In this document: positions 3,630 to 6,183 of the stretch, one piece after another
How the letters are laid out: every line of letters starts with the position of its first letter
How positions within the stretch are numbered: the first letter of the stretch is position 1
IMG/VR virus record: IMGVR_UViG_2548876865_000003
Coordinates: 1-6,183 of that record
Origin: a virus
Lineage: Duplodnaviria; Heunggongvirae; Uroviricota; Caudoviricetes
Direction: 5' to 3' (one strand)
DNA length: 6,183 bases
The notes under the pieces: generated by a model
Databases searched by the model: none
The model's input: the letters and a program-made list of their open reading frames with translations, nothing else
Told to the model about the DNA's origin: nothing
Position numbers and translations under genes: made by a program

Positions 3630-4373
3630 ATGACACAGACTGAATCAGCGATTCTGGCGCATGCCCGGCGGTGTGCGTCAGCGGAGTCGTGCGGCTTCGT
3701 GATAAGCACCCCGGAGGGCGAACGGTACCAGCCCTGTGTGAATGTCTCCGCAGAGCCGGAGGCGTATTTTCGTATTGCACCGGAAGACTGGCTGCAGGCA
3801 CAGATGCAGGGGGAGATTGTGGCGCTGGTCCACAGTCATCCCGGTGGTCTGCCCTGGCTGAGCGAGGCGGACCGGCGGCTGCAGATAAAGAGTGCCCTGC
3901 CCTGGTGGCTGGTCTGCCGGGGAGACATTCACCGGTTCCGCTGTGTGCCACACCTGACGGGACGGCGCTTTGAGCACGGGGTGACGGACTGTTACACGCT
4001 GTTCCGGGATGCTTATCATCTGGCGGGGATAACGCTGCCGGATTTTCACCGCGAGGATGACTGGTGGCGCAACGGCCAGAACCTGTACCTGGACAATATG
4101 GAGGAAACGGGCTTTTACCGGGTGTCCCTGTCCCGTGCACAGGCGGGCGATATCCTGCTGTGCTGTTTTGGCGCATCGGTGCCGAATCATGCCGCCATTT
4201 ACTGCGGCAACGGTGAACTGCTTCACCATATACCGGAACAACTGAGTAAACGGGAGAGGTATTCTGAAAAATGGCAACGACGAACGCATTCTGTCTGGCG
4301 TCACCGCCACTGGTCCGCATCTGCCTTCACGGGGATTTACAACGATTTGGCCGCCGCCTCAGCCTGTATGTGA
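3630..4373 (+). CDS. K: Tail tip assembly protein K (lambda gpK-like), 247 aa, with an N-terminal JAB/MPN (JAMM) domain and a C-terminal NlpC/P60-like domain
   Basis: First ATG (3630) after the L stop (3617-3619), in the frame of supplied ORF 3369..4373. The upstream part of that ORF overlaps L in another frame and is rejected. JAMM motif H-S-H-x7-S-x2-D is encoded at 3831-3872 (HSHPGGLPWLSEAD), with a candidate upstream Glu in AESCGFV. NlpC/P60-like Cys at 3990-3992 (VTDCYTLF) and His at 4188-4190 (PNHAAIY). No clear SD precedes 3630, so the start is somewhat uncertain. Confidence 0.85.
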   Translation: MTQTESAILAHARRCASAESCGFVISTPEGERYQPCVNVSAEPEAYFRIAPEDWLQAQMQGEIVALVHSHPGGLPWLSEADRRLQIKSALPWWLVCRGDIHRFRCVPHLTGRRFEHGVTDCYTLFRDAYHLAGITLPDFHREDDWWRNGQNLYLDNMEETGFYRVSLSRAQAGDILLCCFGASVPNHAAIYCGNGELLHHIPEQLSKRERYSEKWQRRTHSVWRHRHWSASAFTGIYNDLAAASACM

Positions 4374-4951
4374 ACACGGCGGCGGAAGCCATCCGCGCCC
4401 TGTCACTGCAGGTGCCTGGGTTTCGCCGTCAGATGAACGAAGGCTGGTACCAGATACGTATTGCCGGTGAGGATACCGCGCCGGAGGCGGTGTATGCCCG
4501 TCTTCACGAATCGCTGCATGAGGGCGCGGTTATCCACATTGTGCCGCGACTGGCCGGTGCCGGAAAGGGCGGACTGCAGATTGTGCTGGGGGCAGCAGCC
4601 ATTGTGGGCTCTTTCTTCACTGCCGGGGCATCGATGGCGTTATGGGGTTCAGCCCTGGCTGCCGGTGGTTTTTCTGCCACCACGATGCTGTTCTCGCTGG
4701 GTGCCAGCATGATACTGGGTGGCGTGGCCCAGATGCTGGCCCCGAAGGCAAAGACGCCGGAGTACAAAAGCACGGATAACGGCAGACAGAACACGTATTT
4801 TTCCTCACTGGACAACATGATTGCCCAGGGCAACCCGATGCCGGTGCCTTACGGTGAAATGCTGGTTGGTTCACGACGGATATCCCAGGACATCAGCACC
4901 CGTGATGAAGGCGGAGACGGGAAGGTGGTGGTTATCGGGCGGCAGGGGTAA
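4271..4951 (+). CDS. I: Tail tip assembly protein I (lambda gpI-like), 226 aa, with an N-terminal ubiquitin-like (beta-grasp) region and a hydrophobic Gly/Ala-rich C-terminal half
   Basis: Supplied ORF 4271..4951. ATG lies inside the 3' end of K in a different frame, giving a 103-nt overlap, the same size I recall for lambda K/I. The I frame is closed by TGA at 4265-4267 immediately upstream. GGGAGAGG at 4251-4258 is a possible SD at long spacing. Product contains RLAGAGKGG followed by predicted hydrophobic helices. Confidence 0.85.
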   Translation: MATTNAFCLASPPLVRICLHGDLQRFGRRLSLYVNTAAEAIRALSLQVPGFRRQMNEGWYQIRIAGEDTAPEAVYARLHESLHEGAVIHIVPRLAGAGKGGLQIVLGAAAIVGSFFTAGASMALWGSALAAGGFSATTMLFSLGASMILGGVAQMLAPKAKTPEYKSTDNGRQNTYFSSLDNMIAQGNPMPVPYGEMLVGSRRISQDISTRDEGGDGKVVVIGRQG

Positions 4952-4956
4952 AGCAT

Positions 4957-4989
4957 AAAAAAATCCCGCAGAGTTGCGGAGCTGCGGGA
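4957..4989 (-). terminator. Intrinsic-terminator-like hairpin oriented for the minus strand
   Basis: Perfect 8-bp GC-rich inverted repeat TCCCGCAG (4964-4971) / CTGCGGGA (4982-4989) with a 10-nt loop. On the minus strand the stem is followed by seven U (complement of A7 at 4957-4963). On the + strand no U-tract follows (AATAAACG), so it is oriented to stop leftward transcription. Confidence 0.5.
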
Positions 4990-4997
4990 AATAAACG

Positions 4998-5117
4998 ATG
5001 AAGATTAACGTTATGGAGTTATTTTTCAGGCATCAAGAAAGTAACGCTGCGCAATTATCAGCGCCACAGGTAATTTGTGAAAATGTGAGGAAATTCAGAA
5101 ATTTTATTCCGTCATGA
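4998..5117 (+). CDS. Hypothetical small ORF (39 aa) within the I-J insertion; coding status uncertain
   Basis: ATG 4998 to TGA 5115-5117, translating to MKINVMELFFRHQESNAAQLSAPQVICENVRKFRNFIPS. Weak SD-like GGGAA at 4986-4990, which is partly buried in the upstream hairpin stem. The stop lies 2 nt before the + strand terminator hairpin. Below the length cutoff of the supplied ORF track. No recognisable family. Confidence 0.2.
   Translation: MKINVMELFFRHQESNAAQLSAPQVICENVRKFRNFIPS
5054..5081 (-). promoter_or_regulatory. Candidate sigma70-type promoter on the minus strand (TTCACA, 16-nt spacer, GATAAT)
   Basis: Minus-strand reading: -35 TTCACA (complement of 5076-5081), 16-nt spacer, -10 GATAAT (complement of 5054-5059). 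It would start leftward transcription near 5047, running into the minus-oriented terminator at 4989-4957. Found by eye only. Confidence 0.25.
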
Positions 5118-5118
5118 C

Positions 5119-5150
5119 ACAGGCACCTCCGGGGTGCCTGTTGTTTTTGT
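5119..5150 (+). terminator. Rho-independent terminator-like hairpin on the + strand, about 40 nt upstream of the J start
   Basis: 9-bp stem ACAGGCACC (5119-5127) / GGTGCCTGT (5133-5141) with a 5-nt loop TCCGG, followed directly by the T-rich tract TGTTTTTGT (5142-5150). On the minus strand no U-tract follows, so it is + oriented. Confidence 0.6.
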
Positions 5151-5191
5151 GCATAACCAGATTCAGACATCAGGCAGGACAGGGGGACAGA

Positions 5192-6183
5192 GTGGGTAAA
5201 GGCGGCGGCAAGGCGCACACGCCGGTTGAGGCGAGAGATAACCTGAAATCCACGCAGATGATGAGCGTGATTGATGCGATCGGCGAAGGACCCATTGAAG
5301 GTCCGGTTAACGGCCTGCAGAGTATTCTGGTGAACAAAACCCCGCTGACGGACACGGACGGTAACCCCGTGATACACGGTGTGACCGCCGTCTGGCGTGC
5401 CGGGGAGCAGGAGCAGACGCCACCGGAAGGCTTTGAGTCGTCCGGGGCGGAAACTGCGCTGGGCGTGGAGGTGACGAAGGCAAAGCCGGTGACGCGCACC
5501 ATCACGTCAGCGAACATTGACCGTCTGCGGGTGACCTTCGGGGTACAGTCACTGGTGGAGACCACCTCACAGGGTGACCGTAATCCGGCTTCTGTCCGCC
5601 TGCTGATTCAGCTTGAGCGTAACGGACACTGGGTGACGGAGAAGGATATCACCATTAACGGCAAGACCACCTCGCAGTTTCTGGCGTCGGTGATTCTGGA
5701 TAATCTGCCTCCCCGCCCCTTTAACATCCGGATGGTCAGGGAGACGGCGGACAGCACCACGGACCAGCTGCAGAATAAGACGCTGTGGTCGTCATACACC
5801 GAAATCATCGATGTGAAACAGTGCTACCCGAACACGGCCATTGTGGGGCTGCAGGTGGATGCGGAGCAGTTCGGTGGTCAGCAGATGACGGTGAACTACC
5901 ATATCCGCGGTCGCATCATTCAGGTGCCGTCAAACTACGACCCGGAAAAACGCACGTACAGCGGTATCTGGGACGGGAGTCTGAAACCGGCATACAGCAA
6001 TAACCCGGCCTGGTGCCTGTGGGACATGCTGACGCACCCGCGCTACGGGATGGGAAAACGCCTGGGGGCAGCGGATGTGGACAAGTGGGCACTGTATGCC
6101 ATCGGGCAGTACTGCGACCAGAGTGTTCCGGATGGTTTCGGGGGAACAGAGCCGCGGATGACCTTTAATGCGTACCTGTCACA
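5192..6183 (+). CDS. J: Host specificity protein / central tail fibre J (lambda gpJ-like), N-terminal ~330 codons, truncated by the window end
   Basis: Open frame from GTG 5192 to the window end with no stop, which is why it is absent from the supplied track. Translation VGKGGGKAHTPVEARDNLKSTQMMSVIDAIGEGPIEGPV ... NKTLWSSYTEIIDVKQCYPNTA ... WCLWDMLTHPRYGMGKRLGAADVDKWALY ... DQSVPDGFGGTEPR matches the lambda gpJ N-terminal region as I recall it. Purine-rich AGGGGGA at 5181-5187 serves as SD. An in-frame ATG at 5114 is an alternative start. Confidence 0.9.
   Translation, partial: MGKGGGKAHTPVEARDNLKSTQMMSVIDAIGEGPIEGPVNGLQSILVNKTPLTDTDGNPVIHGVTAVWRAGEQEQTPPEGFESSGAETALGVEVTKAKPVTRTITSANIDRLRVTFGVQSLVETTSQGDRNPASVRLLIQLERNGHWVTEKDITINGKTTSQFLASVILDNLPPRPFNIRMVRETADSTTDQLQNKTLWSSYTEIIDVKQCYPNTAIVGLQVDAEQFGGQQMTVNYHIRGRIIQVPSNYDPEKRTYSGIWDGSLKPAYSNNPAWCLWDMLTHPRYGMGKRLGAADVDKWALYAIGQYCDQSVPDGFGGTEPRMTFNAYLS

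What the first reader, a model, noticed from the sequence alone, without database searches (positions are those of the whole stretch)
4957..4989. Minus-oriented intrinsic terminator directly after gene I
A perfect 8-bp GC-rich stem (4964-4971 / 4982-4989) is followed on the minus strand by seven U, the hallmark of a rho-independent terminator, yet all annotated genes are on the + strand. It therefore implies leftward transcription from within the I-J insertion or from antisense J. It would also prevent such transcripts from running antisense into the tail operon. On the + strand the same hairpin would overlap the weak SD of the small ORF. Internal repeats of GCGG allow an alternative 5-bp stem (CCGCA / TGCGG).
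Basis: seen in the sequence. Interest (0 to 1): 0.5.

Follow-up and report, generated by a model that had tools for sequence, protein, structure and literature searches.

The report
Terminator of known prophage sRNA EcOnc22
The hairpin-plus-U7 just after tail gene I is a real minus-strand intrinsic terminator: it ends a ~90-nt Hfq-binding small RNA (the EcOnc22/23/24 family, found in E. coli O157 prophages in 2014) that sits backwards between tail genes I and J, so the feature is genuine but already described, and the RNA's targets are still unknown.

Summary
A perfect 8-bp stem (4964-4971/4982-4989, dG -12.5 kcal/mol) is followed on the minus strand by U7 (4963-4957), 6 nt from the stop codon of I. 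No such motif appeared in 1000 shuffles.

It is the 3' end of a small antisense-oriented gene inside a 240-nt I-J spacer; lambda has 60 nt there. A sigma-70-like promoter (TTCACA-16-GATAAT, 5081-5054) predicts a ~92-nt minus-strand RNA (5048->4957).

The homologous spacers of E. coli O157 Sakai prophages Sp15, Sp14 and Sp11 are the published loci of EcOnc22, 23 and 24. Tree et al. 2014 reported an Hfq-CRAC peak on the antisense strand, a ~85-nt northern band that was destabilised in delta-hfq, and a predicted Rho-independent terminator. RNase E-CLASH reads of EcOnc22-24 contain 33 nt identical to window 5031->4999.

All 45 distinct spacer variants I collected keep a hairpin plus T6-8 at this position. 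The stem is invariant in 38, the loop is free to vary, and 7 carry a different hairpin.

The small + strand ORF is not conserved. Targets are unknown. Verdict: real, ordinary in mechanism, already known.

The parts
4952..5191 (.). The I-J intergenic spacer (240 nt), which carries the whole element. Lambda has only 60 nt here.
   Evidence: I (Pfam Lambda_tail_I) ends at 4951. J (GTG, MGKGGGK..., Pfam FNIII-A_GpJ) starts at 5192. Lambda I ends at 15444 and J starts at 15505; alignment. The spacer is found in 723 of 5426 complete E. coli genomes, median 3 copies and up to 9, whereas related tail genes are found in 4440 genomes.
4957..4963 (-). U7 tract of the terminator, the predicted 3' end of the sRNA.
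   Evidence: Sequence. T6-T8 is present in all 45 variants.
4964..4989 (-). Terminator hairpin: an 8-bp stem UCCCGCAG/CUGCGGGA with a 10-nt loop.
   Evidence: dG -12.5 kcal/mol. It is the only structure in the RNAalifold consensus of 12 diverse family members. The stem is invariant in 38 of 45 variants, with at least 8 different loops. A different hairpin (-13.2 to -17.6 kcal/mol) plus T-run occupies the same place in the other 7.
4957..5048 (-). Predicted ~92-nt sRNA, an orthologue of EcOnc22/23/24 of E. coli O157 Sakai. The 5' end is inferred from the -10 box and has not been mapped.
   Evidence: Global alignment to the Sakai Sp15 copy shows 5 mismatches and 3 gaps over 92 nt. The published northern band is ~85 nt and Hfq-dependent. 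Predicted lengths are 90-103 nt, and the 5' end GCGTTAC is conserved in all 32 distinct sRNA versions except the five group D copies represented by L057.
4999..5031 (-). Unstructured body of the RNA and candidate seed. It contains an (AAN)3 run (AAAAAUAAC) and the core UUAAUCUUC.
   Evidence: It is identical to the EcOnc22/23 half of the RNase E-CLASH chimeric reads, GCCTGAAAAATAACTCCATAACGTTAATCTTCA (the EcOnc24 read carries its first 25 nt) (located). The Hfq-CRAC peak, lifted to the NC_002695.2 coordinates, covers the homologous stretch up to the 5' arm and loop of the hairpin. The core TTAATCTTC is kept in sequence groups A-C.
5054..5081 (-). Sigma-70-like promoter of the sRNA: -35 TTCACA (5081-5076), 16-nt spacer, -10 GATAAT (5059-5054).
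   Evidence: 10 of 12 matches to consensus. The homologous position in phage 1720a-02 reads TTTGCA-16-TATAAT. In Sakai the -10 is AATAAT but the -35 is weak and the scanner reports nothing.
5084..5099 (.). CRP-like palindrome TGTGA-N6-TCAGA upstream of the sRNA promoter. It may be a regulator site, but its role is unproven.
   Evidence: One mismatch to TGTGA-N6-TCACA, with 0.21 such matches expected per window by chance. Both half-sites are invariant in 45 of 45 variants, while the N6 spacer has 5 versions. Its centre lies about -44.5 from the predicted start, which is not a canonical CRP position.
5119..5150 (+). Strong + strand terminator-like hairpin (10 bp, 3-nt loop, then UUGUUUUUGUG) just upstream of J. 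It is not part of the minus-strand RNA.
   Evidence: dG -17 kcal/mol. Conserved, with one compensatory C:G to U:A variant. Lambda's 60-nt spacer has an analogous CCGCC-TGCG-GGCGG TTTTGTCATTT.
4998..5117 (+). A 39-aa ORF antisense to the sRNA. It is probably not a gene.
   Evidence: No Pfam hit. The start codon is ACG in 4 variants, no MKIN-type start is found in 7 more, and the ORF is truncated or frameshifted in several others. The middle of the ORF differs almost entirely at the amino-acid level between the window and Sakai.

Best explanation
The hairpin plus U7 is the Rho-independent terminator of a small non-coding gene. The gene is inserted in reverse orientation between tail genes I and J of a lambdoid (pro)phage.

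RNA polymerase starts at a sigma-70 promoter inside the spacer (-10 at 5059-5054) and transcribes leftwards for about 90 nt. It stops in the U-tract at 4963-4957, just short of the stop codon of I.

The product is an orthologue of EcOnc22/23/24, an Hfq-binding, Hfq-stabilised sRNA of E. coli O157 prophages Sp15, Sp14 and Sp11. The terminator therefore does two jobs. It defines the 3' end, which incidentally keeps antisense transcription out of the tail operon. Together with the U-rich stretch in front of it (UUUAUUU), it also forms the standard 3' Hfq-binding module of enterobacterial sRNAs.

What is shown: the sequence anatomy, its conservation, and its homology to loci for which expression, size and Hfq dependence are published.

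What is inferred: the exact 5' and 3' ends in this window, expression in this host, and that the RNA acts in trans on host mRNAs from the lysogen, like other prophage 'moron' sRNAs. Its targets are unknown.
For: Anatomy: stem, U7 and energy; promoter.

Homology: the spacer is 81-92% identical to the I-J spacers of STEC prophages and Stx phages. The predicted RNA differs from the Sakai copy by 5 mismatches and 3 gaps.

Context in Sakai: the tail genes lie on the - strand and the EcOnc22/23/24 peaks on the + strand, inside the I-J spacers of Sp15, Sp14 and Sp11. The coordinate shift between the two genome versions (+135 to +137) was calibrated with the CLASH read sequence. An independent rough check with HnrS/EcOnc12 gave about +127.

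[quoted passage not shown] The 2021 review lists EcOnc22 (synonyms EcOnc23 and EcOnc24) as confirmed by northern probing and Hfq-CRAC, with targets unknown (PMC7873438). CLASH reads contain the antisense-strand sequence.

Conservation: 45 of 45 variants keep a hairpin plus T6-8. The pattern is an invariant stem with a variable loop, and 7 variants have a replacement hairpin. The promoter sits at the same position in 1720a-02.
Against: No experimental data exist for this particular sequence or its host. No complete E. coli genome or phage record in the collections is more than about 93% identical to the window.

The 5' end is only predicted. The predicted length (90-92 nt) is slightly longer than the ~85-nt gel estimate.

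The -35 is weak in the Sakai copy that is known to be expressed, so the promoter assignment is not secure.

The stem never varies in 38 variants, so there is no covariation proof of the structure.

The 10-nt loop is large for an intrinsic terminator.

The terminator column of Table S2 lost its tick marks in the text copy. My reading of it rests on the count of 31.

A trans-acting role is unsupported beyond 1-2 CLASH reads, which pair the RNA with yjbJ.
Confidence: 0.85

Rival explanations
1. The RNA is a cis-antisense regulator, or one half of a type I toxin-antitoxin-like pair. It would exist to pair with the + strand transcript it overlaps. That could be the late tail mRNA at the I-J junction, or the start of the 39-aa ORF (4998-5117), which ends at its own + strand terminator. 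The hairpin would then simply be the terminator of the antisense RNA.
For: The RNA is fully complementary to + strand 4957-5048. This stretch includes the ORF's start codon (4998) and putative SD. The layout of ORF plus downstream terminator plus overlapping antisense RNA resembles hok/sok-type loci. The ORF is intact in 18 of 45 variants at 39 aa, and in 11 as a different 31-aa version.
Against: The ORF start is ACG in 4 variants, and no MKIN-type start is found in 7 more. Frameshifts or truncations occur in several others. The sequence of the middle of the ORF is not conserved. The peptide has no hydrophobic segment and no Pfam hit. The RNA does not reach J's ribosome-binding site (5180-5191). 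The late operon is silent in lysogens, where the sRNA was detected.
Confidence: 0.07
2. The element is only an insulator. The terminator stops stray antisense transcription (from antisense J or from a spurious promoter) before it collides with late tail transcription. The short RNA would be a by-product with no function.
For: The terminator sits exactly at the boundary with I. The + strand hairpin on the other side of the spacer could similarly bound rightward transcripts.
Against: A dedicated promoter lies only about 65 nt upstream of the hairpin, and the 5' end is conserved. A 41-nt stretch of the RNA body is identical between the window and Sakai, even though the promoter region and flanks diverge. 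The RNA binds Hfq, is stabilised by it, and is found in RNA-RNA chimeras. Lambda does without the element.
Confidence: 0.05
3. The hairpin matters on the + strand, as a processing or stability element of the late I-J mRNA. Its resemblance to a minus-strand terminator would then be incidental.
For: The hairpin folds equally well on the + strand (-13.3 kcal/mol). One RNase E-CLASH chimera joins the two arms of the tail-sense hairpin, so tail-sense RNA across it exists.
Against: On the + strand the A7 precedes the hairpin, and no function for that arrangement is known. Conservation of A7/U7 in all variants, together with the antisense Hfq peak ending at the hairpin, is explained by minus-strand termination. 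The two roles are not mutually exclusive.
Confidence: 0.03

Closest known systems
EcOnc22 / EcOnc23 / EcOnc24 (Tree et al. 2014, Mol Cell; listed with unknown targets in Sy & Tree 2021)
   Same: It has the same genomic slot (the I-J spacer of lambdoid STEC prophages) and the same antisense orientation. The terminator stem and U7 are the same. A 41-nt stretch of the RNA body is identical, and it includes the 33 nt recovered in CLASH reads. The predicted size matches the ~85-nt northern band.
   Different: This copy has 5 substitutions and 3 indels relative to Sakai. It has a better -35 (TTCACA) and a different -10 (GATAAT against AATAAT). It has a 10-nt loop instead of 11 nt. It sits in a tail module that is only about 92% identical to any record searched. 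No expression data exist for this copy.
HnrS (EcOnc10/11/12), prophage sRNA repressing hha (PMC13502914)
   Same: It is a multicopy, Hfq-associated sRNA of EHEC lambdoid prophages. It is transcribed antisense to the late genes and ends at an intrinsic terminator. It shares the octamer UAAUCUUC.
   Different: It is at a different locus, between Rz and the terminase genes. The rest of the sequence is unrelated. HnrS pairs with hha through CUUCUACC, and the window RNA matches only CUUC there (by inspection).
AgvB / AsxR anti-sRNAs (Rfam RF02702, RF02703)
   Same: They are prophage 'moron' sRNAs of EHEC with variable 5' parts, a conserved 3' terminator, and Hfq binding.
   Different: They lie downstream of PR', not in the tail region. 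They are 51-60 nt long. No Rfam match appears in the window even at E<=10.
Phage morons (Juhala et al. 2000)
   Same: This is an extra transcription unit with its own promoter and terminator. It is inserted between two genes that lie only 60 nt apart in lambda.
   Different: It is non-coding and reversed relative to the operon that hosts it.
Type I toxin-antitoxin loci (hok/sok, ibs/sib)
   Same: A small ORF with its own terminator is overlapped at its 5' end by a ~90-nt antisense RNA.
   Different: The ORF is not conserved, not hydrophobic, and often lacks a start codon.

Membership tests
Rho-independent (intrinsic) terminator | G+C-rich hairpin immediately followed by a run of U on the transcribed strand | tested here: met
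   8 perfect pairs (6 G-C), dG -12.5 kcal/mol, then U7 with no gap. Found in 0 of 1000 shuffles.
Rho-independent (intrinsic) terminator | Lies downstream of a promoter on the same strand, at the end of a transcription unit | tested here: met
   A minus-strand TTCACA-16-GATAAT site lies 65 nt upstream of the hairpin. The homologous promoter is present in 1720a-02.
Rho-independent (intrinsic) terminator | Transcript 3' ends map in the U-tract | not testable with these tools
   Term-seq for Sakai exists (GSE143631, cited in PMC13502914 and PMC7873438) but the data could not be read. The supplement of PMC7547250 is not held.
Rho-independent (intrinsic) terminator | Hairpin plus U-run conserved in relatives | tested here: met
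   45 of 45 variants keep it. The stem is invariant while the loop varies, and 7 variants have a replacement hairpin. No covariation is available.
EcOnc22/23/24 sRNA family | Sequence homology to the Sakai loci | tested here: met
   5 mismatches and 3 gaps over 92 nt against Sp15. Sp15, Sp14 and Sp11 all belong to the most common variant.
EcOnc22/23/24 sRNA family | Located in the I-J spacer, antisense to the tail genes | tested here: met
   for Sakai; for the window.
EcOnc22/23/24 sRNA family | Contains the RNA sequence actually recovered for EcOnc22-24 | tested here: met
   The CLASH read half GCCTGAAAAATAACTCCATAACGTTAATCTTCA equals window 5031->4999 on the minus strand.
EcOnc22/23/24 sRNA family | Expressed as a ~85-nt RNA that is bound and stabilised by Hfq | not testable with these tools
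   Published for Sakai only. The host of this window is unknown.
Hfq-binding 3' module of sRNAs (Otaka 2011; Ishikawa 2012, as cited in PMC4104026) | Terminator hairpin preceded by a U-rich stretch and followed by a long poly(U) tail | tested here: met
   UUUAUUU precedes the hairpin and U7 follows it in the window. The upstream stretch is UUCUCU or UUUUCUGUU in other variants. This is a sequence criterion only.
Rfam families (any of 4227, including AgvB, AsxR, Esr41, STnc100) | Covariance-model score at or above the gathering threshold | tested here: not met
   Nothing was found in the spacer at E<=1 over the whole window. At E<=10 there was only noise, at most 19.7 bits against gathering scores of 39 to 99 bits.
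HnrS (EcOnc10-12) | Locus between the Rz and terminase genes; seed CUUCUACCCAAUCAGUAC | tested here: not met
   Different locus and sequence.
Type I toxin-antitoxin | Conserved small, usually hydrophobic toxin ORF opposite the antisense RNA | tested here: not met
   The start codon is lost or the frame broken in many variants, and there is no hydrophobic stretch.
Phage moron | Autonomous promoter-terminator unit inserted between genes that are adjacent in related phages | tested here: met
   The spacer is 240 nt against 60 nt in lambda. It is present in 723 genomes, against 4440 with related tail genes.

The most novel reading that the evidence does not exclude
The I-J antisense sRNA could be more than a host-directed regulator. 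It could also be a weapon or brake in phage-phage and phage-host conflict. Made constitutively by the prophage, it would pair with the perfectly complementary I-J junction of late tail mRNA. That mRNA could come from the phage itself, from co-resident lambdoid prophages, or from superinfecting relatives. Pairing could trigger cleavage and lower J (tail-tip) synthesis.

The four body-sequence types (A-D), each with its own version of the complementary target, would then act as specificity groups. The invariant CRP-like site would tie this to carbon status.

Nothing here tests this idea. It is simply not excluded.
Probability: 0.08. Interest if true: 0.55.

Novelty: already known. Interest (0 to 1): 0.2.

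Why it matters
It also attaches the call to a named, experimentally detected RNA.

The practical value is in annotation. The I-J spacer of many STEC prophages (723 of 5426 complete E. coli genomes, up to 9 copies each) carries a reverse-oriented sRNA gene. It is unannotated in every record examined here, apart from an occasional 'hypothetical protein', and Rfam has no model for it.

The biology is still open, because no target of EcOnc22-24 is known. The comparative data gathered here give concrete handles for a functional study:
- a conserved core, UUAAUCUUC;
- four body types on a constant terminator;
- an invariant CRP-like site upstream of the promoter.

Tried and rejected
(1) HnrS identity. 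It looked attractive because HnrS is also multicopy, with up to nine copies. I rejected it because HnrS lies between Rz and the terminase genes and has a different sequence.

(2) AgvB/AsxR or Pas sRNAs. These sit at other prophage positions, and there is no Rfam hit here.

(3) EsrF and Esr055. EsrF lies between glnA and ntrB; nothing in the Esr055 paper's text places that sRNA in a phage tail region, and its locus was not determined.

(4) hha as a shared target, through the octamer common with HnrS. RNAduplex on long inputs gave meaningless long-range pairings that were no better than shuffles. By eye, only CUUC/GAAG pairs at the hha RBS.

(5) A scan of genome contigs with the terminator pattern, to get the species range.

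(6) Covariation proof of the stem. This is impossible because the stem is invariant in groups A-C and group D does not align.

(7) Supplements of the StxS and HnrS papers, for Term-seq and TSS positions. They are not held.

(8) A literature search for the RNA sequence itself found no paper.

(9) A type I toxin reading of the 39-aa ORF. I rejected it because the ORF is not conserved.

Full report
Context. The window is the tail-tip part of a lambdoid late operon, all on the + strand. It carries H (22-2595), M, L, K (3630-4373, JAB plus NlpC/P60 domains), I (4370-4951, Pfam Lambda_tail_I) and the start of J (from GTG 5192, Pfam FNIII-A_GpJ). The best matches in the phage and complete E. coli genome collections are only about 92-93% identical, so the exact source is not in those collections. 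Between I and J lies a 240-nt spacer (4952-5191). Lambda has 60 nt at this place.

Checking the observation. The sequence is as described. The + strand reads A7 (4957-4963), TCCCGCAG (4964-4971), a 10-nt loop, and CTGCGGGA (4982-4989). On the minus strand this is a perfect 8-bp stem (6 G-C pairs) followed directly by U7. The U-tract ends 6 nt from the stop codon of I. The hairpin has dG -12.5 kcal/mol and pair probabilities of 0.89-0.999 within the full predicted RNA. A strict terminator motif occurs at this single site in the window and in none of 1000 dinucleotide shuffles. The generic scanner also reports the site on the minus strand. On the + strand there is no T-run after the hairpin, so the signal works in one direction only.

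What it belongs to. On the minus strand, 65 nt upstream of the hairpin, there is a sigma-70-like promoter: TTCACA-16-GATAAT (5081-5054, 10 of 12 matches). This predicts a ~92-nt RNA running from about 5048 to 4957. Apart from the terminator, the RNA is largely unstructured in the family consensus.

The spacer is 81-92% identical to the I-J spacers of Stx-converting phages and STEC prophages. It occurs in 723 of 5426 complete E. coli genomes, with a median of 3 and a maximum of 9 copies. Related tail genes occur in 4440 genomes. It is therefore an accessory insertion, a non-coding moron in reverse orientation.

Link to published work. Table S2 of Tree et al. 2014 (PMC4104026) lists EcOnc22 (Sp15, 2902714-2902774, + strand). 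Its northern band is ~85 nt and is destabilised in delta-hfq. The homologues are EcOnc23 (Sp14) and EcOnc24 (Sp11). In NC_002695.2 the tail genes of Sp15, Sp14 and Sp11 are on the - strand, and these coordinates fall in or next to their I-J spacers.

The paper used the older genome version, so the coordinates needed lifting. The supplement of Waters et al. 2017 (PMC5286369) gives the actual read sequence of EcOnc22/23/24 chimeras, GCCTGAAAAATAACTCCATAACGTTAATCTTCA, with its old coordinates. Locating that string in the new sequence gives shifts of +135 to +137. An independent rough check with HnrS/EcOnc12 gave about +127. After lifting, each Hfq-CRAC peak covers GAUGCCUGAAAAAUAACUCCAUAACGUUAAUCUUCAUCGUUCUCUCCCGCAGCUCCGCUAA. 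That is the body of the antisense RNA running into the 5' arm and loop of this very hairpin, and it ends 10-12 nt before the T-run. The 33-nt read sequence is identical to window 5031->4999 on the minus strand.

[quoted passage not shown] Exactly 31 rows of the table (EcOnc01a-31, including 22-24 and the terminator-bearing HnrS) form the group without the 'x' mark. So the terminator had already been predicted. A 2021 review lists EcOnc22 (synonyms EcOnc23 and EcOnc24) as confirmed by northern probing and Hfq-CRAC, with unknown targets (PMC7873438).

Comparative anatomy. Two exact-word scans of IMG/VR, plus the fetched phage and Sakai loci, gave 105 spacers that collapse to 45 distinct sequences. 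Every one has a minus-strand hairpin (-12.5 to -17.6 kcal/mol) followed by T6-T8 at the I-proximal end. In 38 variants the stem UCCCGCAG/CUGCGGGA is invariant while the loop takes at least eight forms. This argues for selection on the 8-bp stem. The other 7 variants (group D, for example L057 and L081) carry a different, longer hairpin plus T-run at the same position. RNAalifold on 12 diverse members returns the terminator as the only consensus structure. Because the stem does not vary, there is no covariation evidence.

The predicted RNAs are 90-103 nt long. They share the 5' end GCGTTAC in all versions except the group D copies represented by L057, and fall into four body types. Groups A-C share the core UUAAUCUUC. 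The window belongs to group A, as does Sakai. The promoter is found at the same position in phage 1720a-02 as TTTGCA-16-TATAAT. In Sakai the -10 is AATAAT but the -35 is poor.

Mechanism. The best-supported reading is the ordinary one. This is a Rho-independent terminator that defines the 3' end of a prophage-encoded sRNA. Together with the preceding U-rich stretch and the U7 tail, it also supplies the usual Hfq-binding 3' module. [quoted passage not shown] That point is my inference from the sequence alone.

A trans-acting role from the lysogen is inferred by analogy with AgvB, AsxR, StxS and HnrS. The only interaction data are one or two CLASH reads pairing CCAUAACGUU with yjbJ. That decamer is not conserved in groups B-D.

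Stopping antisense transcription before it enters I is a real consequence of the terminator. But the RNA body is conserved, it binds Hfq, and it has a dedicated promoter. Together these show the unit is a gene, not just an insulator.

Rivals. A type I toxin-antitoxin or cis-antisense reading is suggested by the 39-aa + strand ORF (4998-5117), which ends at a strong + strand terminator. However, the ORF has ACG for ATG in 4 variants, no detectable MKIN-type start in 7 more, and is truncated or frameshifted in several others. It also changes almost every residue in its middle part between the window and Sakai. It is not hydrophobic and has no Pfam hit. A + strand role for the hairpin cannot be excluded, and one tail-sense CLASH chimera spans its arms. 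But it would not explain the conserved U7 or the antisense Hfq peak.

Known families excluded. HnrS is at a different locus with a different sequence. AgvB, AsxR and the Pas sRNAs sit at other positions. There is no Rfam hit. EsrF is a different locus, and the Esr055 paper gives no link to a tail region.

Verdict. The feature is the terminator of an sRNA described in 2014 (EcOnc22/23/24), here as a slightly divergent copy. It is already known in kind and in family, its mechanism is ordinary, and its biological targets remain unknown. Interest is low to moderate. The residual value lies in annotation and in the comparative handles listed above.

Noticed in passing
window 5119-5150 (+): There is a strong + strand terminator-like hairpin (10 bp, -17 kcal/mol, then UUGUUUUUGUG) inside the late operon, just upstream of J. 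It is highly conserved across spacer variants, with one single-sided change and one compensatory C:G to U:A variant. Lambda's 60-nt I-J spacer carries an analogous hairpin plus T-run (CCGCC-TGCG-GGCGG TTTTGTCATTT). Q-modified polymerase presumably reads through it. Its purpose is unexplained.
   Followed up: partly
window 5084-5099: A CRP-like palindrome TGTGA-GGAAAT-TCAGA lies between the + terminator and the sRNA promoter. Both half-sites are invariant in all 45 variants, while the 6-nt spacer has five versions. Its centre is about -44.5 from the predicted sRNA start, which is not a canonical class I or class II position. About 0.2 such matches are expected per window by chance.
   Followed up: partly
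L057, L072, L098, L081, L067 (IMG/VR), I-J spacers: A divergent 'group D' of the same spacer has a ~103-nt predicted antisense RNA. Its body is different (…CUCCUUAAGGUGACUAUUCGU…) and it has a different, longer terminator hairpin. It keeps the same upstream block and, in some copies, the same 5' end GCGTTAC. This looks like modular replacement of the RNA body and terminator.
   Followed up: partly
L054 (phage PhiR12_1) 3620-5742: Relative to the window, this phage has a ~2.1-kb insertion between tail genes L and K. It carries five extra ORFs, including one with an antirepressor note, and two of them are on the opposite strand. This is a second moron slot in the same tail module.
   Followed up: no
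Sakai yjbJ (L234 547-756); PMC5286369 supplement: RNase E-CLASH chimeras join the EcOnc22/23 body to the yjbJ coding region (AACGUUAUGG pairs with CCAUAACGUU). There are only 1-2 reads, and the decamer is not conserved in spacer groups B-D.
   Followed up: partly
Sakai Sp11/Sp15 I-J spacers, tail-sense strand (PMC5286369 supplement file 4): One CLASH chimera (AGCGGAGCTGCGGGAGAGAACGA + GAAGATAAAAAAATCCCGCAGAGT) joins the two sides of the same hairpin on the tail-sense RNA. This shows that a tail-sense transcript across the I 3' end exists at a low level in lysogens.
   Followed up: no
window 4998-5117 (+); L054 7109-7207; L002 1506-1658: Some phage records annotate small 'hypothetical proteins' in or next to this spacer. 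None annotates the antisense sRNA. These protein calls are probably artefacts of an unannotated RNA gene.
   Followed up: partly
window 3742-3765 (+): Inside gene K, the scanner reports a 9-pair terminator-like hairpin followed by ATTTTCGTAT on the + strand. I did not examine it further.
   Followed up: no
whole window: No complete E. coli genome (5426) and no phage record (50,697) matches the window at more than about 93% identity, although the gene order is that of common STEC prophages. The host may be an unsampled lineage or a related species.
   Followed up: partly
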